Notes under the pieces: model-generated | The model's database searches: none | The model's input: the letters and a program-made list of their open reading frames with translations, nothing else | What the model was told of the DNA's origin: nothing | Position numbers and translations under genes: made by a program | Shown: one piece after another, positions 1 through 11,178 of the stretch | Numbering within the stretch: position 1 is the stretch's first letter | Layout of the letters: every line of letters begins with the position of its first letter | Origin: Yuukianura sp. NJ FZ-2021 | Lineage: Eukaryota | Assembly (NCBI GenBank): GCA_046563655.1 | Contig: CM102286.1 | Span: 2,542,001-2,606,000 of the forward strand | Length of the DNA: 64,000 nucleotides | Reading direction: 5' to 3'

Positions 1-1809
1 GTCGCTCAAATGGAACCGATGTGGTGACGAAACATAGCAATGGCGGATACCACACTTGGTCGTACACGTTACGTGAAAATATGACGCAATTCTTATGTTC
101 CGACAATATTTGGCAAACTAACGACCGAGTCTGGAGTGACCCTATCAACATCACCGTCACTCCACGAAGTAAGAATAAAAGTAGAATTTCGTACCTATAT
201 GATCAGCAAATTTTGTATAAGAGTAACTTTAATATTAATTTTCCACTAACATTTATTCGTAATTTAGTTATAGTTTGTGGTATTCTGGAACTGAAGTGCG
301 CCAGTGGACAATGCGTGAGGTATCAAAAACTTCCTAAGTACATTCAAATTGCAACAAACTCTTCTTAAAAACTATAACATCTATGATATTTTTTGTATAT
401 AGATCCAGTTACAGATGTGACGGCGACCGGTAAGCCAATCCCACTTAACATTTACCACATTTATCTGAGTTAAAACATTAACTTTTCCATTGGCTTTTTT
501 CTTTAAAAATAATTTGTGTTGTTCGTACTTACAGTGACTGTTTAGATGGTACTGACGAGCTCAATTGTCCAAGCACGACTACGACTACAGCTGCACCTGA
601 AACTACCGTTTCCTGTACATACCTTCAATTTACTTGTCACAGACATCGCTATGTCAACGAGTCTAGCGAAGCTTGTATCCCAGGTACGTATATTGAATCA
701 TTCCTTTACTACGTAATTAGCTGAAGAGGAATGAGGAATAACTTTACCATAATCTAGGTACATTTACCACAGTTTTTTTCACTCATTTTTTTTTAATTTC
801 AGTGGCGTATCGATGCGACGGAGACAAGTAAGTTGACCAAACACAAAATAACAACAAAATTTCCGAAGTTTGTCATAACTTTAGTGTACTATTTAAAAAA
901 TTGCTGACTTTAATCATTGTAATTGTTTCAGAGATTGCGCAGATGGCGAAGATGAAGAGAATTGCCCATCAACAACCACAACCACTACTACAGAAGTTCC
1001 CATTGGTAGCTACAAATTTACAAAAGGCGCCAAATTCCAATACATTAATCGACTTAACCATGTGTAGTATAACATTTCAACTGTTTAGGTTGTGGACCAA
1101 GCATGTTCGAGTGCAACAATGGCGACTGTATCAGGTAAGGTAGCTTTTACCGACATAGTAACTTGGAACATGTTCTTTACTGACGTATGTGGCATGGGTA
1201 TATTAGAATACACTTTTTGGTATACATTGTGGGGGTATATTATGGTAATATTTTAGTATACATTATGTATTAGTATAAATGTATAATATTTGGATATATT
1301 TTAGGGCCTCATACAAATGTGACTTGATGAAAGACTGTAAAGACGGTTCGGATGAACACCCAATACAAGACTGTGGAAACATGACAACTGCTGCCCCACC
1401 GGCTCCACGAACTTTACCACCAGTACCGGAACCCGTTCCAGAACCGGTTCCAGAAAACAAGACCGATTCTTGGTTTAACTTTGACTCTAAATTTACGGCT
1501 GAACCTGAACCAGAATCGTCTTCAGCTGGAGCTACAGCTGGTATTATCATTGGAGGTAATTTCAAAAATTCAACTTCTACCACAATCATCGTAAGTTAAA
1601 AGTCACAGTCTCGATAGTGCAGCTTACAATTAAAGTTTTATTGTTTTGCAGTAATACTGGTCATTGCACTCATCTGTCTGGCAGGATATGTTGTGTATAC
1701 TCGATATTACCCGCACGTCACACTTCCGCGGAGAGGCGTGGCAACTACTGCTTCGAATATCAAGTATACGAATCCGACATGTGACCAGGAAGAAGTTCTT
1801 ATAGGTTAA
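1..1809 (+). CDS. Single-pass membrane protein with three LDL-receptor class A repeats (5' end outside window)
   Basis: Spliced exons give LDLa motifs [52 protein letters not shown] and CNNGDCIRASYKCDLMKDCKDGSDEHPIQDC, with Thr/Pro-rich linkers. TM segment GIIIGVILVIALICLAGYVVY; short tail ...IKYTNPTCDQEEVLIG, stop TAA 1807-1809. GT-AG introns keep the frame. Confidence 0.85.
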
Positions 1810-1941
1810 CTAAAATCGAAAATGTCGGGGAGAAAAACGGCGGGAATTTAAGAAAATAAAATTATCCATTAATCGATTACTCACGCAGCAGAAAAAAATC
1901 CAATTAAATTCCATTTATTTTTTTGTTGGCGGTTTCAAATG

Positions 1942-3976
1942 CTAACAAATATCGGCAAAGTTTAACGTTGCCAAACTTCTGCCTGCAACTTGGCTGGGAC
2001 CACGACATTGTGGTGGACCTCCGACAATCAGCGAAAGATGGTCTCGCACCCAGCTACAAAACAATTAGACGAAAAATTTGGAATGATTGAATTTAAAAAT
2101 CAAAAACAAAATTTTGAAAATCCTGGTTTTCTTACTACGCAAAGTTCAAAATATTGCAGTCACATTTCCAGAAGTTGTCTTCAATATTAATCCTCGTAAA
2201 ATTCGACACATCTTCAAAAACGTCATCTTCCACCGATTCCAAATGGTTGTTGTCCAAATTCCTAGTGAAAAAGTTATACATAAATTAGGTTATGCCACTT
2301 ATGATAAAAAAAAATATGCTGTTATCATAAACTTGTTGCTGTGTAGTGTAGTACAATTGTGTAAGGTTGTGCAGTGAATCGACGGTTCCTCTGCGCAGAA
2401 TCTTGAGAATGTTGTTCGTGAGAGCCAGGGATTGGAGGTTATGCAGTCCTGCAAAAGCTCCGGGGTCAACAACTTCTATGTTATTTCCAGCCAGAAAAAG
2501 ACGCTTGAGCGATACAAGGGGTGCAAAGGCTCCATTTTCCAGATTCTCCAGAAAATTTCGACGTAGGTTCAATTCCCGAAGTGCCTTTAGATCCTTCCAG
2601 TAATAGGGAGTAATCTAATTGAAAAATTTTGATATCTATATTTCCAAAAATGTTAAGAGTATGAGTTCCAAGCCAAATTTTTTTTACCTCCGTGAACAAA
2701 TTCTCTGAAAGGTCAAGCGTCACCAAACCCTTTAGTCCATGAAATACAGATGCTGGAAGTTTTTCCAATTTATTTTGATGTAAATCCAGGTTTTGTAGTT
2801 CTTTGAGTTCATGGAATGTTCCGGGGTCAATGAAGGTCAACTTGTTTCCGTTCAATTTTATCGTTGTAAGTTCTTTCTGGGAAATCCTCTCTAAATTTTG
2901 AATCTGGTTGTTTGAAATGTCCAAAATTTTGAGTTTTGGCAGACTTTCCGGAAGATTTTTCCATTCAAGAATACGATTGGTCGAGAGTTGTAGGAATGTC
3001 AAGGCGTCAAGGCCTTGCCACTGATTGGAGTCAAATGAAGTCAGCAGATTTTCGGACAAATCCCTGCAAAACGAATTATAAGTCATATTATTTAAAAAAA
3101 AATCATGAATTCCAAAATATCAGCCATCATTCATCAACTTACAATGTTTCCAATCTGTTCAATTTTTTGAAAAGCTTGTTAGACACAAACTCCAGCTCGT
3201 TTCTTTGCAAAAGTCTACAACCACAATAATTTTTTTTTTCAATTTTTTTTAAATCGTTATGCAAAATTTCTCGTTTCAGCAAGCAAGATTTTCCTTACAA
3301 AATTTTTAAGTTTTCAACTGTATCAAAAATAGTTTCCGGAAGATAATTCAAACCGTTGTTGGACATATCTCTGAAAACATAAGCGTAAGCGTTTCAGTAA
3401 AAATGTTTATTGTATGAACGAATGACTTTACAAATCTTACATTTGACTAAGCCTGTTAAGTCGTTTGAAAACGTTTTGGTTTATAGAACGGATTTCATTG
3501 GACCCAACATCTCTGTAAAAAACGACGTATTAGCTAGTATACTTTGTTAAAAACTTTGTTAACAACTAAAATTAGAAATAAGCAATAACTTTACAATGTG
3601 AGTACGTCTTTTGGAATTGTTTGATCTTCCGGAATTCGGTTCAATGAAAGTCTGTAGCAGCTCACGGCGAAAGATGGTGCCACACATGCACAAGGTCCTT
3701 GGTTACATTGTATCCAGCGCTCGTTATGGTCAGATATCCGCCATACTGGAATTTTCAACCATGATTGTTCAAATTGATTGCAATTATTTGTATTGTTACT
3801 TTACCTGGCTGTTCTAAGGACTGAATCCGTTTTTCCAGGTTTTTAATACTTCTATAGAGGTCTCGATGGTCGTCGTCATCGCTAAGTTGTTCTTCGTTAG
3901 CATTTTCTGAAATGATAATTTCGATTAGCGTTAAACACAGTGTACCCAAAAATAAGTATGAAATTCGAGTTTCCAT
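1942..3976 (-). CDS. Secreted leucine-rich repeat protein (LRRNT - many typical LRRs - LRRCT)
   Basis: Signal peptide METRISYLFLGTLCLTLIEIIIS; LRRNT WIQCNQGPCAC; many LxxLxLxxNxL repeats in ORFs 2481-3086 and 2285-2572; LRRCT NFWKCDCNILNFAYW...PQCRGP, stop TAG 1942-1944; no TM segment. Multi-exon. Confidence 0.85.
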
Positions 3977-4305
3977 TTCGATAACCAATTAATTCGAAAT
4001 TTATTTTGAACGATTTTACAGTAAATGTAAGGATTTATGTTCTACTCCGACTTCAAATCATGAACAACATGCTATGAAGGTCTGGAATAATTTTCGGTGA
4101 GAATTCTGTCAGTTTTTCATATCGTGATCAATTGAATGTAATTAGAATGACCTTTACAATATTACTTGGAATCTTCCCTTGAAAAAATAAAGGATGCTAA
4201 CGTCTCTTGTCAATCAACCGACGCGACGTCCTAGGGGTATGAAACCTAAAAATAAATTGTAACACAATACTTGGATACCAATTGCTTAAATATCCTATTC
4301 AAAAA

Positions 4306-5112
4306 TTATGTTGAGCAACTATCAGGGTAAATACTCTGTAGCTTGTCTATGACATCCCGGAATGCAGGTCCCTCGTAGCGAAGTTCGTCAGTCCAGTAAG
4401 AAGAAGAGGCGTTGCATCTGCGCAGTACGACGTTTGAATGGTCGCCATGCTCAAATGTTGCTGACATTTTTTCGTAGTAGTGACAAACTTCCTGGTCATC
4501 TCCTTCTCTAGGTGTTGTTCCATATGGTGGACATAGGAAATCAATAAATGCTGCATATGGACGCTCGAGAGGTGATCGATCTTCAGATGTTGATGTATCT
4601 GCGAAGTATTCGATTTGATGGATATTCTTTTCTTCTGGTTCGAGTATTTCCGGACGATGTGATGAACTGAGTATATTGGAAGTTCCGCCTCTCGCTGTAA
4701 AGTAAGGTCCATCACGACCAAGGATTGTGAAGCTACTAATCTTGAGTTTGCCAGCGATTACTTTAAGGGCTCCTTCCATTCCAGGATGATCGTGTAATGG
4801 AAGTTGACCTCCTTTGAATACAACGAATATCCCGAGACTAAACCATTTGTTTTGGTGAAGTTCCATGTAACCTACTGGAGCCGGAGCGTTGTGGCTTTTC
4901 ATTTGCTGAATGCTCTGTTTCAAATTGAAATCTTCCTCGGTGGTACAGTGTAGAGCATCCAACAATTCGTCATGGGTATCCAAGTATCCTTTGGGCAATG
5001 AACTGCGCGACGTCGATGATAGAGATCCATGCCCAAGACTGTTTCCAGGGGCATTCATAATAGCACCATAAGCGTAGGCTGCTTTCAGTATCCGCTCGAT
5101 TTTCGATTTCAT
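4306..5112 (-). CDS. ADO: 2-aminoethanethiol (cysteamine) dioxygenase, PCO/ADO cupin family
   Basis: 268-aa intronless ORF with LPLHDHPGMEGALKV, NIHQI and AAFIDFLCPPY motifs plus C-terminal YEGP, all characteristic of ADO/plant cysteine oxidases. Confidence 0.92.
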   Translation of the reverse strand: MKSKIERILKAAYAYGAIMNAPGNSLGHGSLSSTSRSSLPKGYLDTHDELLDALHCTTEEDFNLKQSIQQMKSHNAPAPVGYMELHQNKWFSLGIFVVFKGGQLPLHDHPGMEGALKVIAGKLKISSFTILGRDGPYFTARGGTSNILSSSHRPEILEPEEKNIHQIEYFADTSTSEDRSPLERPYAAFIDFLCPPYGTTPREGDDQEVCHYYEKMSATFEHGDHSNVVLRRCNASSSYWTDELRYEGPAFRDVIDKLQSIYPDSCST

Positions 5113-5841
5113 TTCGTTCTCTTCAGCAATCTAACGCATTACAAACAGTTTGATTAGGTTACATCGTGTAAGTGGTAAAATAACAAATATTAGAATAAGA
5201 AATTAAGGCAAGTAATTACCTGTTAAATTTATAAATATATCATGTATAAATCAAGCCCCAATTTCCAGAGACAGACTTCGTAATCGTAACAGCTGTGCTG
5301 TTGATATCCAGGAATCCAGGCTCACTGTATGAAGCAAATCCTTCGAATAATAGAGCTGAATTAATTAGCTGAATTAGCGGTAACTTAACTGCAAGCTAAT
5401 TGATAATTAAAGTTAGACTTTCGTCGGCTACGTTGTTTAGAATACACCATTTTTTAAGAAAGAAGCGCAGTAGGGTTTATTTGAACAAGCGAAAGATAAA
5501 CTAAACTCTACAAGAAAAATAAGAGAAGGGTGACAGGGAGTGAGAGAAGAAACCGCTAGAATGACTTGCAAAATTAAATCAAAGTTAAATTTTTAAAGTT
5601 TCGCGCCATGTCCACAGCCCTCGTTACTGCCATTTCGACGTATTGAAAACGTATTAGCACCTAAACCTTATAACCCGTATATAAGCAACCATTTAAAATA
5701 ATTAAATAATTAAAATAAAATGAAATAATTAAAAAATAAATAAATCAAAAGCGATTAAAATGTTATCTACTACGACTATTCAATGGGATACCGGCGAAGC
5801 TGAGAAATAAGCTGCGAAATGGTTGGATTTTTCAAAGCAAA

Positions 5842-7154
5842 TTACGGAAGGCTATCGAAATTGATTTGAGGACGACGATTGACCTCTTTCCGGATGAAAT
5901 CTACACCAGTTTGGACCATTTCGTCAAAGAACCCGCAATTTTTCAAAAAGAAGTGTCCATCTTCCGATACACCACCAGCGTAGTCATGTCGTCCATTTCT
6001 TGACGTCTCATCCCCAGTATATCTTGCCTTCACAACTTCCTTCATAGTACCGTCAATCATTCTTACCCATTGGTTCTGGAACAAAACCTGTCTGGGAAGA
6101 TGACCTGTTTCTGGTAAGAAATTTTCTGAAAACGAATACAAGCCTTTCAGATACGTTGACTTTTTTGGTTTCTGGAAACTTGCAATCAGTTGCCAATCGG
6201 CTTCCGGGGGACGAAACCACGCAGTGCACTTTGTATTGTCAGCATCCAATGGAACAGCAGTGAGTAAAAACTTGTATGTTTTGTCCGTTGTCCAATAGTG
6301 TTTTAGGAAGGACTGCTTTCCAGAACCTTCACCGCCAAAGTCATAGACTTCCACGTTGGGACCTTTCTCCAGCAATATGACTCTGTACTCTTCTGGAATA
6401 TGCTCGGGATTGTCAGTGTCAAAGTCCGACCAAACTGAAAACAGAATACGTCTCTCCGTGAAACCGTTCACTTGCATGCCGAAGTATCCCTCGGAAAATC
6501 CATTGGCCATAAAGTAGGCTCCGATTACGTCCTGTCCAGGTTCAACTCTGATTTCGTTGTAAAAGTATTCAATGTTTCCTGTTATTTGCGGATCGTAGTT
6601 AAAGTGGATCGATGGACCTCGTCGTCCGAAGTAGAAAAAATCAGGATCCGAAACATAAATAACGTCGCCGACGATGTTTGATAGGATGACTTCCGCGACG
6701 TCACCGAAGTAAGGTCCAGCCTTGGATATTCCTTGGATGTCAAGCTGGACATATCCAGCGGCATCGGTTGAAAATTCACCAATTGGTTGAATATATGATT
6801 CGACTCCTTCAATTACGACATCGTAGGTCTCTCGACCTGCAATCGACACACGAATCAGGCTACTTCCTTCGGGTACTTTTAACCTCAGCGAGACCGGGAA
6901 ATTTTCGGCTCCAGCCAATTTAAAAAACACGCTGCATATTGACTCTGGATCCATCCAGTTTCCTAATCCGGCGTCCGTGATGATTTCAGGCGATTGGTAG
7001 CTGCCATATTTCGTAATAAATGCATTACCCCCAAGGTGAATATTGACATCTCTCTCCAACTGAAAGTATACAAATTATTTCACAAATTATGAAGTTTGAA
7101 AAATGAATTTCAAAAGAAGTTAGGCTAAGCTGAATTTACCTTAGAAGCTGCCAT
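5842..7154 (-). CDS. Bacterial-type DUF5077 + DUF3472 domain protein (candidate horizontally acquired gene)
   Basis: Motifs FYFGRRGPSIHFNY, EYFYNEIRV, YFMANGFSEGYFGMQVN, ERRILFSVWS, DFGGEGSGKQSFL, YSFSENF and FFLKNCGFF match my recollection of Bacteroidetes DUF3472 proteins. Micro first exon ATGGCAGCTTCTAAG (MAASK, 7154-7140) is joined in frame to exon 7059-5842 across an 80-nt GT-AG intron (7139-7060). Confidence 0.8.
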
Positions 7155-8204
7155 TTCTTCTTCAAATCCAAAACGAATTTGTACCTATAAATTTAGTAGG
7201 ATGAATTTACGCCAGTATTAAACTGCAACAACTCCGGAACAACGCAAAAGATGGAATATTTTGTTAACCTTATAATAAATTTAAGTATGTCACTCACCTA
7301 GTTACGTATTCATGACGCATGACGCTGGAAGTCAATTAGCAAGTTTATCCGGGACGACTCAAAAACGACGCAGTGGGGTGACACAATTGCATTATTAATT
7401 GTTGACTAAATGATTAATTTTAAGTGAGGAATTAGGTCATCCTTGTCAGCTTCTAGAATTTAGTTGATTTGAACTAAATTTCAAATTTACGACGCCATAA
7501 CACATTTTTTGCGGGTTCTTGCGCAGGGTGGGGCGATATGAGATGAAAGTACTTTTTAAATTAAAATTCGCGGCAACAGAAAACCTAACTCAAGTTTTCG
7601 GTTTTTTTTTAAACGAAAATATTTGCATTACTAAAAATTGTTTCACTCGTCAATTGTTAATTGACGATTACGAATTTACATACAGTGTGTATTTTAAACG
7701 TTCCTACATAGTATCAACTACGGTAAAAACGGTGTCGACGAATCCGCGTTACGGTAACTCAATATTAAAATAATTCGAATATGCGTTTGTATTTTTGAAA
7801 GTCGGACTAAGGGATTCCTAAAGTCACTACCTGGCACCATTCATTCCATCGAACTTCTATCACTGACGAAACAACGAAATCTCTAAGAATTTAACTATTT
7901 TTATAGTTATTTACTGAGTGATTAATTTACTTCTTTTATTTTTGTTTGCAGAGACAAAGAGGAAGGTCAATCAGGAACTGAGTATAAGGCAGGCAGGCGC
8001 GTAGCGAGTAATTGGAATCTCATCGCGGAACAACGGTACAAATTGAAAAATAGAACAAGAAGCGAATTTACATTTAAGAATTTAAATTATTCCATGTTCT
8101 GTTTTACGACTTGCTGATTGCGATTCTGATATAAATTTTAGACGATTTATAAGGCAAGGCACGCACACTCAGGCTTACTGTGATTGGCATCCGCTTAAAA
8201 CAGA

Positions 8205-9793
8205 ATGAGAAGAATAGAACGAGCATTCAAAGCATCATACGTTTATGGCGGTGTTATCAATGGCCGTGGCAGCATGTACCATGGATCGCTATTGTCGGCA
8301 TCAGCAGCACAGAACTCACTTCCGATGGAATCAGCGTATTCAGATACACAATGTGAACTTGCAACAGGTGTCAAACGCTATTCTCGTGAAGATTTTAACT
8401 TCAAACAGAGCATTCACACGATGAGAAACCTTCACGCCCCCTCCGCTTATGTGAGCCCTTACGAAAGAAAATATTCAAGTCCCCCTAATCCGCCAGAAGC
8501 ATTGGGGCCTACAGTACCTTCTATTGTACCAACTTCGACTGTAAAAAAGAGGATCAAGCGGAAAGGGGGAACATTACAACAGGAAATGGAAGAAACGGAA
8601 TCTGAAGCTCGCTCTAGAACGTATCCGGTTGTAGCTTACGCAACATGCGATGAAATCAATTTGGAAAAGCTGAGGAGAGGCCTTTCCGTGCAGGGCCTGT
8701 ACGTTGTGACTGCATGGCCGAAAGATTGCGGTAAACGAAATTTTAATTGACTTCAGCCCGTATTAACTTTTCATGATCAACTTGAACCGCTGTGGGCTAT
8801 TAATTATTAGATGCAGCTCTTCATGATGTCATTCATGTGCTGGCCAAGTATCCTACAAGCGATGAGCCTAGGGAAATTTTTTTCTTTCGCGAAGGAACTG
8901 TCGTCTTTTGGAACGTCCCAGAACTGGAGCGAAACAATGTGCTACTGTAAGTCTTGACTTAATCTCATGCAATGTAGATTGGCATTATATAATCTTAACC
9001 AAACTTATTACTGTTTTTGTGTAGATTCCTTTCAGAATTCCAGGAAGAAAGTTATGGAGCCGCCGAAGTTTTGCAAGAGAGTGAGTACATGCTGTACACT
9101 CACAGTTCAAATGAGCAGCAAAGGTGAATCTCAGATTCCAAAACAATCGTTTCAGTATTTCTTTTCCTAGATATTTAAAGAGGAGGTCAAATTTTTTGTC
9201 TTTTTTAGACAAACCAAGTTAGTTCGAGGTCAAATTCAGCTAAGCCCGACTTCAGACAATCTGACCCTGGAGAAATATACTGTTGCCAATTCAATGGCAC
9301 TGTCAGTGAAACTTGGAATATTGGAGTCAACGCTGGATAAATTTGTGGAGGGTATTGATCAAATGACCGAGGTAACCTCTCCAAAGCATGAAATCGCTGA
9401 AAATCAAATGGCTTCACAGTGTTTCAATGTTTGTTTACCTTTTAGGAACTCAAAGCCGGAACAAAACTGAAAGCAACTCGTGCTGAAGTGCTTCGGAAAA
9501 CGGGCGAATTATTCTCGCTTCGAAATGAACTGAATTTGAATTCAGATTTACTGGATACTCCAGACTTTTATTGGGAACATGAAGACCTTGAAAGCTTGTA
9601 TCACAAAATGTGCAACTATTTAAGTATCGGGCGTCGTACAGGAGTTATGAACGAGAAATTGTCACAGTGTTGTGAACTATTAGAACTCATAACGGGATAC
9701 TTGAATGACAAGCACCATGTTCGGCTGGAATGGATGATTATTGCCTTAATTACAATTGAGGTTGTCCTCGGCCTAAGTCACTTTGTCAAGTAA
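8205..9793 (+). CDS. RMND1: Required for meiotic nuclear division 1 homolog (DUF155 / RMD1-Sif2 family, mitochondrial translation factor)
   Basis: Exons ~8205-8730, 8811-8946, 9025-9080, 9171-9371, 9446-9793. Motifs VVAYATCDEINL, EIFFFREGTVVFWN, LEKYTVANSMALSVKLGILE, LNLNSDLLDTPDFYWE and HHVRLEWMIIALITIEV (C-terminal TM). Confidence 0.92.
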
Positions 9794-11178
9794 TTTGACA
9801 AATTGCCTTACATTTTTACTAAAATACTTAATTGATGACGACAAATACTTATTTTCGGTAGTAAAAATTTGTGTAATACCTAGTATTTGCGTTATAATTT
9901 GGAGATCTTTGCAAAAGCGGAAGCATCCCTTCATTTCTAAAAATTTTTGATCCTGCATCTAAAAGTTTTATTTTTTGATTTTTCAGTTGACTTGCTTCCG
10001 GACTTTAGACATTCAATTTTCTGTCATCAATCAACAACCTCAGCCCAGCGTCCATCGTGTGACTGTCGTCTCGTCCGTGGTCAGTGACGACGGACAAGTC
10101 GTTTCTTGACGTCGTATGTGGTGATACGTCTAGTATTAAAGTTTCCTGCAATTGTGGGTTTAGGTACTTGGAGGAGGATGGAAGTTGCAACATCTTACAT
10201 CAGCAGTTGTGGCGACTATAACAAAAAAGTGAAGATTATTTGGAAAGTGTAATACAGTTACAGTTTTACACTGCATCAGCATTAGGTTTAAATTTAATTT
10301 TTATGATTATGCTCCCATGCTTCCTTGCGTTTTTGAGCGTTGAGTCATCCTCTCACACTATGATTTTTTATGTTTTTGCACATAAAATATAGCAGAGGAG
10401 GAAAGTGGTTTAGGTTTGGTGGTTGAAAAGGAAAAGGGAGTTCCTGTTTGGTGCTGTATCTCTCTTCGCTTCACTGACTACTGACATCATGTTAAGTCAC
10501 CAGCTGATTTATAATTAAACAAATTAACAGGAAAGTGGACAAAAACTATATCATAAACACTTCAGTCCAATTCAACCCGTATCCACTTTGGGAACACTTC
10601 AGCGCCGTTATCTTTACGTTACTGGTGAAGCGGTTTTAGCAGTTTCGTGACATTGACCTAAATTGACACATTTCATCTTCGTTTACGTCCGACGACGAGG
10701 TGTGGTGTAATAGTAGGCGTGGCTCGCAGTAAAAGAAGTACTGAGAGGTAATTCGTTATCTTTGCAATTAAAGGTAAAAACCTTTTGTACTAAAATGTAA
10801 GATTTTAGATCTAAAGAAAGATTTACATTACGATTGCACAATTACACTGTTTGTTTTATTCAAGGTTTGACTGCGAACGGGCAATAATCGGGTTTACGAC
10901 GTACGTTCATCTCCACATCCAAATGTTGATAAGGTCGTTCCCGATTCCTGGACTTCCTGCGACAGGTCACTAAATTGTGCCGTATACGCAGTACATTGGG
11001 TTCTACCACTTTGGTCTTGGTTGAATACGAAATTGAATCGAACTATCGAGGACACCGACGTCTACCCGGCAACCCAGCCTATACGTTACCTCTCGAATGC
11101 AAGAGGAATTCCAAGTCTTCCTACTTCGTCGCAACGATTTTGCTTACCGACGTTTTTATACTTACGACATTTGATACA

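What the first reader, a model, noticed from the sequence alone, without database searches (positions are those of the whole stretch)
5842..7300. Domesticated bacterial-type DUF5077/DUF3472 gene between ADO and RMND1
Seen: a 1.2-kb uninterrupted exon in an otherwise intron-rich neighbourhood, plus a 5-codon first exon (MAASK) with an 80-nt GT-AG intron and a probable further 5'UTR intron (~7185-7297). There is no signal peptide. From memory of the family, DUF3472 proteins are mainly Bacteroidetes, usually exported and of unknown function, with scattered eukaryotic copies. Inference: a horizontally acquired gene integrated in the animal chromosome, given spliceosomal introns and retargeted to the cytosol. 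It sits inside the interval of the ADO/RMND1 rearrangement.
Basis: partly seen in the sequence, partly recalled or inferred. Interest (0 to 1): 0.7.

Follow-up and report, generated by a model that had tools for sequence, protein, structure and literature searches.

The report
Bacterial-type glycopeptidase-like gene in springtail genome
A soil arthropod (probably a springtail) carries an intact gene of bacterial origin whose protein looks like a recently described class of enzymes that cut sugar-coated (mucin-like) proteins; gene transfers of this family into animals are already in print, so this is a further, well-documented example, not a new kind of thing.

Summary
Window 5842-7154 (-) carries a two-exon gene: MAASK, an 80-nt GT-AG intron, then a 405-codon exon. 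It encodes DUF5077+DUF3472 (Pfam E 3e-29 and 8e-91).

It is chromosomal. Animal genes flank it, a 10.6-kb public contig spans it and both neighbours, and a 67%-identical orthologue in another animal contig has the same micro-exon and the same downstream LRR gene.

In a careful ML tree it falls in a 24-row clade, split 100/99 from 40 bacterial rows. The named members of that clade are springtails and sciarid fungus gnats. The transfer is therefore old and shared, not private to this genome.

The family's function is no longer unknown. The solved DUF3472 protein HC7 is a di-glutamate mucinase. The model matches it at Z 27-29, and HC7's Glu200 aligns with invariant E312.

No signal peptide is encoded, and all 6 named arthropod relatives also lack one.

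Bacterial transfer of DUF3472 into animals is published (PMC7864903). This is a new member of a known kind. No RNA data were available. Earlier scan notes on other genomes made the same DUF3472-HC7 link.

The parts
7140..7154 (-). Coding part of exon 1 (ATG GCA GCT TCT AAG = MAASK). The start context is gaagaaATGg.
   Evidence: Read directly. An in-frame stop lies directly upstream. The L001 orthologue has an equivalent micro-exon, MMEDKQ.
7060..7139 (-). 80-nt phase-0 spliceosomal intron (GTAAAT...TTTCAG).
   Evidence: Read directly. An intron at the equivalent place occurs in L001 at 463-720. There is no RNA evidence.
5842..7059 (-). Exon 2: 405 codons plus the TAA stop (5842-5844). This is P0001.
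   Evidence: It is the only copy in the window (tblastn). Against the L001 orthologue, pN is 0.206 and pS 0.77 over 405 codons.
6679..7041 (-). DUF5077 domain (residues 7-127), a beta-sandwich like CBM35/CBM6 carbohydrate-binding modules.
   Evidence: Pfam E 3.3e-29. VIA-align gives 3zm8 CBM35 at Z 15.0 and 2cdp CBM6 at Z 14.1 over model residues 1-130.
5857..6645 (-). DUF3472 domain (residues 139-401), a jelly-roll like the catalytic domain of the di-glutamate mucinase HC7.
   Evidence: Pfam E 7.7e-91. Foldseek matches HC7 (8pn5/8pn3/8pmu) at E about 1e-13. VIA-align gives Z 27.4-28.7 over model residues 143-405.
6124..6126 (-). Codon of E312 (motif YSFSENF), the counterpart of HC7 Glu200.
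   Evidence: In the HMM alignment, the wild-type chain has E at chain position 200 and the E200A mutant chain has A there. The residue is E in 81 of 83 rows of A2 and in 18 of 18 rows of A3.
6328..6330 (-). Codon of E244 (motif FGGEGSG), the candidate second catalytic glutamate.
   Evidence: It aligns with E131 in HC7's FGGEGTG motif. It is E in 79 of 83 rows of A2 and in 18 of 18 rows of A3. Its catalytic role is inferred.
7185..7297 (-). Possible 113-nt 5'UTR intron (GTGAGT...TTATAG). Unverified.
   Evidence: Only the splice-like ends were read. There are no RNA data.
4306..5130 (-). Downstream neighbour: ADO (cysteamine dioxygenase), a single open frame.
   Evidence: Pfam PCO_ADO E 1.6e-26.
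8199..9793 (+). Upstream, divergent neighbour: an RMND1-like gene. Its first exon begins with a copy of the ADO N-terminus.
   Evidence: DUF155 E 1.3e-23 on 9446-9793. ADO residues 5-98 match this exon at 42% identity, E 4e-17.
2285..3119 (-). Two exons of an LRR gene on the same strand, downstream. They are syntenic with the LRR gene downstream of the orthologue in L001.
   Evidence: 53% identity over 129 aa (E 5e-43) and 59% over 87 aa (E 2e-34) to L001 6783-7214 and 7229-7537.

Best explanation
This is an intact, chromosomally integrated gene of bacterial (Bacteroidota-like) ancestry in a soil arthropod, probably a springtail.

Origin. It belongs to an old arthropod clade of DUF5077-DUF3472 genes shared by springtails of at least two orders and by sciarid fungus gnats. 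After acquisition the gene lost the bacterial export signal, gained a start-codon micro-exon plus a spliceosomal intron, drifted to host-like base composition, and has stayed under purifying selection.

Protein. It has two beta-sandwich domains. The N-terminal domain resembles CBM6/CBM35 modules and would hold a glycan. The C-terminal DUF3472 jelly-roll keeps the glutamate that matches catalytic Glu200 of the Bacillus cereus di-glutamate mucinase HC7 (E312 here). It also keeps a second invariant glutamate (E244).

Most likely mechanism (inferred, about 40%). It is a glutamate-dependent endo-acting hydrolase that cleaves the peptide backbone next to O-glycosylated Ser/Thr in mucin-like glycoproteins, acting inside cells or after holocrine release from gut cells.

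What is shown and what is inferred. Shown: the gene structure at sequence level, family membership, fold, residue conservation, physical linkage, synteny and the tree. Inferred: catalysis, substrate, cellular location and expression.
For: Family and fold:
- Pfam matches at E 3e-29 and 8e-91.
- AlphaFold model with pLDDT 97.8.
- 4qhw, a 'putative two-domain sugar hydrolase', matches at TM 0.95 and Z 55.7.
- HC7 entries 8pmu/8pn3/8pn5 are deposited as 'DUF3472 domain-containing protein'. They match at profile E 4.5e-13 and Z 27-29.
- HC7 is described as a di-glutamate mucinase that cleaves mucins carrying Tn and T O-glycans (PMC13003899, passages).

Catalytic residues:
- Glu200 of HC7 aligns with E312, and HC7's FGGEGTG aligns with FGGEGSG at E244.
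- Both are E in 18 of 18 arthropod-clade rows. In the 83-row alignment they are E in 81 and 79 rows.

Bacterial gene context:
- In 15 of 28 bacterial loci examined, an immediate neighbour is glycan-related.
- These include SusD directly upstream in 5 loci, GH109 in 3, GHMP kinase in 3, and GH2, GH3, GH123, a sulfatase and a BNR-repeat protein.

Integration:
- Animal genes lie on both sides.
- One 10,654-bp contig of a public run covers 2000-5281 and 5364-10000.
- The orthologue in L001 has the same micro-exon and intron and the same downstream LRR gene.

Phylogeny:
- In the careful IQ-TREE run (64 rows, 442 columns), 24 arthropod-type rows are split from 40 bacterial rows at 100/99.
- The named members are Allacma fusca, Orchesella cincta (2 proteins), Bradysia (2) and Pseudolycoriella.

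Selection and amelioration:
- pN is 0.206 against pS 0.77.
- GC3 is 44.7%, against 36-39% in neighbouring genes and 44-68% in five Cytophagales homologues.
Against: - No RNA evidence for expression or for the splice junction.
- The protein is only 18-20% identical to HC7. The two-domain 4qhw subfamily has no assay in the searched literature.
- Known mucinases act outside the cell, whereas this protein has no export signal.
- The identity of HC7's second catalytic glutamate could not be read, because the primary paper is not held.
- With an unrooted tree, nesting of the arthropod clade inside bacteria rests only on weak branches (SH-aLRT 82-87) of the quick 104-row tree.
The ADO search gave 5 unnamed hits.
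- 18 of the 24 clade rows are unnamed.
Confidence: 0.8

Rival explanations
1. The origin and integration are as above, but the protein is a glycoside hydrolase or lyase acting on a polysaccharide, or a non-catalytic lectin, and not a glycopeptidase.
For: - The 4qhw depositors called it a 'putative two-domain sugar hydrolase'.
- The C-terminal domain also resembles GH16-type 1,3-1,4-beta-glucanases (Z about 14) and alginate lyases (Z about 9-10).
- The bacterial neighbours are mostly glycosidases and SusD.
- Identity to HC7 is only 18-20%.
Against: - HC7 is by far the best match after 4qhw (Z 27-29, against about 14 for GH16 folds).
- No GH16-type ExDxxE or ExDxE motif occurs in P0001.
- The glutamate matching HC7 Glu200 is nearly invariant.
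- A lectin-only role does not explain the invariant E169, E244, E312 and D359.
Confidence: 0.4
2. The lineage of the window did not receive the gene directly from bacteria. It received it from another soil arthropod (intraphylum transfer), or sciarid flies received theirs from springtails.
For: - In the best tree the sciarid clade is nested among springtail rows: Orchesella is sister to P0083 plus the sciarids at 99/92.
- There is a published precedent. Canonical terpene synthase genes are shared by Sciaridae, Collembola and Acariformes and are interpreted as intraphylum transfer (PMC11665903, abstract).
Against: - The AU test does not reject springtail rows forming one clade without the sciarids (p 0.185).
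- Old paralogy with losses would give the same picture.
Confidence: 0.25
3. This is an ancient eukaryotic gene inherited vertically and lost in most animals, with no horizontal transfer.
For: - Copies exist in a ciliate (Tetrahymena) and a basidiomycete (Pterulicium).
- The springtail and fly copies form one clade.
Against: - In the quick 104-row tree the fungal copy groups with an unnamed row inside the bacterial part (SH-aLRT 89). The ciliate copy is an unresolved long branch. Neither joins the arthropod clade.
- Metazoan monophyly is rejected in PMC7864903.
- Among insects only Sciaridae appear in the two lists of 120 best hits.
- At least 593 bacterial species genomes carry the gene.
Confidence: 0.05
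4. This is bacterial contamination or a chimeric assembly.
For: Outside the arthropod clade, the best named hits are bacterial.
Against: - The gene needs a spliceosomal intron to obtain its start codon.
- The flanks are AT-rich and host-like, and the coding GC is host-like.
- A separately assembled 10.6-kb contig spans the gene and both neighbours. A run of another study and organism label covers all 30 bins.
- A syntenic orthologue exists in a second species.
- The closest bacterium is only 48-49% identical.
Confidence: 0.02

Closest known systems
Horizontally acquired DUF3472 (often DUF5077+DUF3472) genes of centipedes and other animals (Undheim & Jenner 2021, Nat Commun, PMC7864903)
   Same: - Same Pfam family and the same two-domain layout.
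- Bacterial donors are inferred.
- The genes carry introns in the host genome.
- Transfers into animals were multiple, and metazoan monophyly is rejected (section 10).
- The legend of their Fig. 4 credits a Collembola and a copepod image, so springtail sequences are apparently already in their tree.
   Different: - The centipede proteins are venom or venom-gland components. The fragment printed from their alignment has a hydrophobic leader.
- The springtail and sciarid clade has no export signal.
- Their full tree (a PDF) and the full alignment (cut when stored) could not be read. I could not check whether their Collembola sequences are the clade found here.
HC7, the Bacillus cereus K8 di-glutamate mucinase (PDB 8PMU, 8PN3, 8PN5; Narimatsu et al. 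2024 Nat Catal, seen only as a citation, plus the description in PMC13003899)
   Same: - DUF3472 catalytic jelly-roll (Z 27-29 over residues 143-405).
- The Glu200 counterpart (E312) and the FGxEGxG glutamate (E244) are conserved.
   Different: - 18-20% identity.
- HC7 is a secreted bacterial protein of about 630-660 residues that uses a CBM5.
- The window protein has 410 residues, an N-terminal DUF5077 (CBM6/35-like) domain and no signal peptide.
- No activity has been shown for this subfamily.
BACCAC_02064 of Bacteroides caccae (PDB 4QHW/4QHX), an uncharacterised 'putative two-domain sugar hydrolase'
   Same: The same two domains from end to end: 42% identity, TM 0.95, Z 55.7, rmsd 1.2 A over 396 residues.
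   Different: It is a bacterial, exported protein of a gut Bacteroides. Its function has not been tested in any paper found.
Foreign genes shared by Sciaridae, Collembola and Acariformes (canonical terpene synthases; Chen et al. 2024 PNAS, PMC11665903)
   Same: The same unusual taxon pair (springtails and fungus gnats) shares a gene family otherwise foreign to insects (abstract).
   Different: It is a different protein family. There the donor proposed for the Sciaridae was mites. Here the internal order of the clade is unresolved.

Membership tests
Pfam DUF5077 (PF16871) + DUF3472 (PF11958) two-domain proteins (4QHW type) | Both HMMs matched above their gathering scores, in N-to-C order. | tested here: met
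   DUF5077 scores 101.9 bits against a cut-off of 24.6. DUF3472 scores 304.9 bits against a cut-off of 24.8.
Pfam DUF5077 (PF16871) + DUF3472 (PF11958) two-domain proteins (4QHW type) | The same fold as the solved member over the whole length. | tested here: met
   Model pLDDT is 97.8. 4qhw matches at TM 0.95/0.96 and Z 55.7, with 396 of 405 residues aligned.
Di-glutamate mucinases (HC7 type) | DUF3472 catalytic-domain fold. | tested here: met
   Foldseek E 1.8e-13 to 5.1e-12. VIA-align Z 27.4-28.7 with 237-239 residues aligned. Profile E 4.5e-13.
Di-glutamate mucinases (HC7 type) | The glutamate equivalent to HC7 Glu200, the residue mutated in 8PN3 and 8PN5. | tested here: met
   It aligns with E312 in YSFSENF. 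The position is E in 81 of 83 and in 18 of 18 aligned rows.
Di-glutamate mucinases (HC7 type) | The second catalytic glutamate. | tested here: inconclusive
   The candidate E244 aligns with HC7 E131 and is E in 79 of 83 rows. Which HC7 residue is the second catalytic glutamate could not be read, because the primary paper is not held.
Di-glutamate mucinases (HC7 type) | A secreted enzyme with an accessory carbohydrate-binding module. | tested here: not met
   No signal peptide. The accessory domain is DUF5077, which is CBM6/35-like, not the CBM5 described for HC7.
Di-glutamate mucinases (HC7 type) | Cleavage of mucin domains that carry Tn/T O-glycans. | not testable with these tools
   This needs a recombinant-protein assay.
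Horizontally acquired animal DUF3472 genes | The animal sequences are separated from other eukaryotes and embedded among bacterial sequences. | tested here: inconclusive
   The arthropod clade is split from 40 bacterial rows at 100/99. Nesting inside the bacteria has only SH-aLRT 82-87 in the quick 104-row tree, where the fungal and ciliate copies sit elsewhere. The published AU test rejects metazoan monophyly.
Horizontally acquired animal DUF3472 genes | The gene lies in the host chromosome, with host-type gene structure and host neighbours. | tested here: met
   Intron and micro-exon. Flanking ADO, RMND1 and LRR genes. Bridging contig. Synteny.
Horizontally acquired animal DUF3472 genes | The gene is transcribed and spliced. 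| not testable with these tools
   No RNA holder was listed for the stretch.
GH16-type beta-glucanases (considered because the jelly-roll is similar) | The catalytic ExDxxE / ExDxE strand motif. | tested here: not met
   The motif does not occur in P0001. Structural similarity is only Z about 14 at 7-8% identity.

The most novel reading that the evidence does not exclude
Springtails and fungus gnats share, through an old bacterial acquisition followed by arthropod-to-arthropod spread, a clade of di-glutamate glycopeptidase-like enzymes that has lost its export signal. These enzymes would work inside the cell, or be released by holocrine gut secretion, as the first animal-encoded mucinase-type O-glycoprotein-cleaving enzymes. 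By extension, the DUF3472 proteins of centipede venom would be mucin-cutting spreading factors.
Probability: 0.15. Interest if true: 0.65.

Novelty: new member of a known kind. Interest (0 to 1): 0.35.

Why it matters
The finding adds a well-documented case to the list of bacterial genes fixed in soil arthropods. The documentation covers the intron, the synteny, an independent contig, purifying selection and the tree.

Two points go beyond the papers I could read:
- The animal DUF3472 genes, including the centipede venom components, can now be given a testable biochemical hypothesis: a di-glutamate, mucinase-like glycopeptidase with both glutamates conserved. The 2015-2021 papers that mention DUF3472 predate that enzyme's description.
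- The springtail and sciarid copies form one clade without export signals. This echoes the Collembola/Sciaridae/mite sharing reported for terpene synthases and hints at gene flow among soil arthropods.

Neither point overturns current views.

Tried and rejected
- Whole-genome search of the window's assembly: none is held. Paralogues elsewhere in the genome are therefore unknown. The window holds one copy only.
- RNA evidence: no RNA holder is listed. Nothing can be said on expression, the 7140/7059 junction or the 5'UTR intron.
- Naming the host through the ADO protein: 5 hits, all unnamed. 'Springtail' rests on unchecked earlier scan notes and on the named members of the gene's clade.
- Naming the unnamed clade members: three cluster look-ups gave names only for the Bradysia, Tetrahymena and Pterulicium clusters.
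- Undheim & Jenner supplements: 'Folsomia', 'Orchesella' and 'Collembola' were not found in the 7 files held, but the alignment archive is cut and the full tree is a PDF. Their Collembola rows could not be identified.
- Primary HC7 paper (Nat Catal 2024): not held. Three citing papers only list it in their references.
- NCBIfam: no family matched.
- Literature on the function of the two-domain subfamily: searches for DUF5077, 4QHW, BACCAC_02064, PF11958 and PF16871 found no assay. 'Nematoblast specific protein' found 0 papers.
- Alien index: ln(E of the best metazoan hit outside springtails, Bradysia 1.9e-111) minus ln(E of the best bacterial hit 8.8e-118) is +14.6. It is positive but modest, because the fly copy belongs to the same foreign clade, so it is not decisive.
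- Sciarids nested within springtails: not statistically secure (AU p 0.185).
- Donor lineage: not resolved beyond 'Bacteroidota-like'. 29 of the 34 rows with a phylum label are Bacteroidota, but those rows were chosen by similarity.
- ESM Atlas: it only returned the same family.
Full report
**Observation.** A stop-to-stop open frame of 410 codons lies at 5842..7074 on the minus strand. Reading that strand gives ATG GCA GCT TCT AAG at 7154..7140, a GTAAAT donor from 7139, a TTTCAG acceptor ending at 7060, and exon 2 from 7059 in the same frame.

The upstream exon is needed, not optional:
- The long exon has no ATG before residue 36. The strand with the invariant G11/N12 (IPLGGNAF in relatives) lies before that.
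- An in-frame stop sits directly upstream of ATG 7154, with or without the proposed 5'UTR intron.

That 113-nt UTR intron (GTGAGT at 7297, TTATAG ending at 7185) has splice-like ends but cannot be tested, because no RNA run was listed.

Pfam places DUF5077 at residues 7-127 (E 3.3e-29) and DUF3472 at 139-401 (E 7.7e-91).

The N-terminus has no hydrophobic leader. None of the 4 ATG-started frames of 18 aa or more in the 1 kb upstream looks like one.

**Integration in an animal chromosome.** The neighbours are animal genes:
- ADO at 4306-5130 (PCO_ADO, E 1.6e-26).
- An RMND1-like gene (DUF155, E 1.3e-23 on 9446-9793).
- LRR exons at 2285-3119.
- RhoGAP, trypsin and a weak LDL-receptor class A match.

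Coding GC is 44.5% (GC3 44.7%). Four neighbouring coding stretches have GC3 of 36-39%, the adjacent non-coding DNA has 33-35% GC, and five Cytophagales homologues have GC3 of 44-68%.

Public-run evidence:
- One Logan contig of 10,654 bases covers window 2000-5281 and 5364-10000, that is LRR, ADO, the DUF3472 gene and RMND1. It carries 125 other letters, so it is not a copy of this assembly, although it may come from the same sample.
- A run of another study and organism label has depth in all 30 bins. Its pieces are too short (442-797 bases) to bridge genes.

A metagenome contig (L001, 8074 bases) encodes a 67%-identical protein. It has the same architecture: ATG ATG GAA GAT AAA CAG, GTAAAT, a 258-nt intron ending TTGCAG, then the long exon. 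Downstream on the same strand it carries an LRR gene whose two exons match the window's LRR exons at 53% (129 aa, E 5e-43) and 59% (87 aa, E 2e-34). Between the two genes L001 has a nanos-type gene (zf-nanos, E 1.1e-12) where the window has ADO.

Between the two orthologues pN is 0.206 and pS 0.77 (saturated) over 405 codons. This fits purifying selection.

**Relatives and phylogeny.** Of 7344 significant hits, the best four (52-67% identity) are unnamed. Bacteria follow (Larkinella, Spirosoma, Runella and others, 45-49%), along with Bradysia coprophila at 47%. At least 593 bacterial species genomes encode a relative; the best 80 are mostly Bacteroidota.

A profile of the nearest rows brought up named arthropods:
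- Allacma fusca and two Orchesella cincta proteins (springtails).
- Pseudolycoriella hygida and Bradysia (Sciaridae).

In a careful IQ-TREE analysis (64 rows, 442 columns, LG+C20+F+G4), 24 rows are separated from 40 bacterial rows by a branch with support 100/99. The 24 rows are the window, 6 named arthropod proteins and 17 unnamed rows. For that tree I left out the Tetrahymena and Pterulicium proteins and the long-branch unnamed rows.

Those rows were present in the quick 104-row tree. There the fungal copy sat with an unnamed row in the bacterial part (SH-aLRT 89). The ciliate copy was an unresolved long branch. The arthropod clade was nested among Bacteroidota on weak branches (82-87).

Inside the clade the sciarids fall next to Orchesella (99/92). 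The AU test does not reject a tree with the springtail rows as one clade without the sciarids (p 0.185).

The 6 named arthropod models all start without a hydrophobic leader, whereas bacterial members have one. N-termini of the unnamed rows come from automatic gene calls and are unreliable. Two of them (P0021, P0042) diverge after 'LFGN', as if read into an intron.

**Function.** The AlphaFold model is very confident (pLDDT 97.8). It superposes on 4QHW, an uncharacterised Bacteroides caccae protein titled 'putative two-domain sugar hydrolase' (TM 0.95, Z 55.7).

The next matches are the three entries of HC7:
- Foldseek E about 1e-13, Z 27.4-28.7 over model residues 143-405.
- The chains are deposited as 'DUF3472 domain-containing protein' and match the family profile at E 4.5e-13.

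[quoted passage not shown] The primary paper (Narimatsu et al. 2024, Nat Catal 7:386) was seen only in reference lists and is not held.

In the HMM alignment the wild-type chain has E, and the E200A chain has A, at the position aligned with the E of the family's SFxENF motif. That is E312 of the window protein. HC7's FGGEGTG aligns with FGGEGSG at E244. E312 is E in 81 of 83 rows and E244 in 79 of 83. Both are E in 18 of 18 arthropod-clade rows.

The N-terminal domain resembles CBM35/CBM6 modules (Z 14-15). GH16-type glucanases, neprosin and scytalidoglutamic peptidase follow at Z about 13-14. No GH16 ExDxxE motif is present.

In 28 bacterial loci I scanned the two immediate neighbours. 15 loci have a glycan-related neighbour: SusD directly upstream in 5, GH109 in 3, GHMP kinase in 3, and GH2, GH3, GH123, a sulfatase, a BNR-repeat protein and others. 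This fits a role in glycan or glycoprotein breakdown.

I therefore rate 'glutamate-dependent O-glycopeptidase, HC7-like' at about 40% and 'glycan hydrolase, lyase or lectin' at about 40%. Neither has been shown. The missing export signal is the main misfit with a mucinase role.

**Comparison with what is known.** Undheim & Jenner 2021 (PMC7864903; passages and section 10 read) report one or two bacterial transfers of DUF3472 proteins, many with DUF5077, into centipedes. They map the genes to intron-bearing loci of Strigamia. They reject metazoan monophyly and conclude that the family moved from bacteria to animals several times. Their Fig. 4 legend credits Collembola and copepod images.

I could not read their full tree (a PDF) or the whole alignment (cut when stored). 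The five papers that mention DUF3472 predate or do not mention the HC7 work. I found no paper linking the animal genes to the mucinase family.

Sharing of foreign genes among Sciaridae, Collembola and mites has a precedent in terpene synthases (PMC11665903, abstract).

Earlier notes of this scan on other genomes had already linked DUF3472 to HC7. I reached the link independently.

**Verdict.** The gene is an old, shared arthropod acquisition of a family whose transfer to animals is in print, so it is a new member of a known kind.

Two parts go beyond print: the HC7-based functional hypothesis for the animal copies, and the springtail-sciarid clade without export signals.

Still open: expression and splicing, cellular location, activity, the donor lineage, the identity of the unnamed clade members, and the name of the host. 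'Springtail' comes from unchecked earlier notes and from the clade's named members.

Noticed in passing
window 4850-5120 (-) and 8199-8480 (+): The first exon of the RMND1-like gene begins with an inverted copy of the ADO N-terminus (42% identity over 98 aa, E 4e-17). The DUF3472 gene lies between the two copies. An earlier scan note covers this stretch.
   Followed up: partly
L001 3577-5212 (+): In the related species a nanos-type zinc-finger gene (zf-nanos, E 1.1e-12) lies between the DUF3472 orthologue and the LRR gene, where the window has ADO. The neighbourhood has therefore been rearranged since the two lineages split.
   Followed up: partly
window 7084-7119 (inside the 80-nt intron): Contigs of three runs (X1, X2, X5) match only this stretch of about 35 bases and run on unlike the window on both sides (tables 7 and 8). 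This suggests a short dispersed repeat inside the intron.
   Followed up: no
window 5281-5364 (ADO-DUF3472 intergenic): In contigs of two runs from different studies (X1, X5), 82 bases are replaced by 71 other letters (table 5). This is an indel or replacement polymorphism just beyond the gene's 3' end.
   Followed up: no
L017, L022, L031 (bacterial loci, around 1300-5760): Three Cytophagales loci share the order SusD-like gene, DUF5077-DUF3472 gene, GHMP-kinase gene. GH109 genes adjoin the family in three other loci (L041, L073, L087). This is a recurrent context suggestive of galactose/GalNAc metabolism.
   Followed up: partly
The window gene has no intron at that site.
   Followed up: no
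P0217 (Tetrahymena thermophila) and P0281 (Pterulicium gracile): A ciliate and a basidiomycete also carry full-length DUF5077-DUF3472 proteins without N-terminal extensions. They do not join the arthropod clade in the quick tree. They look like further independent eukaryotic acquisitions.
   Followed up: partly
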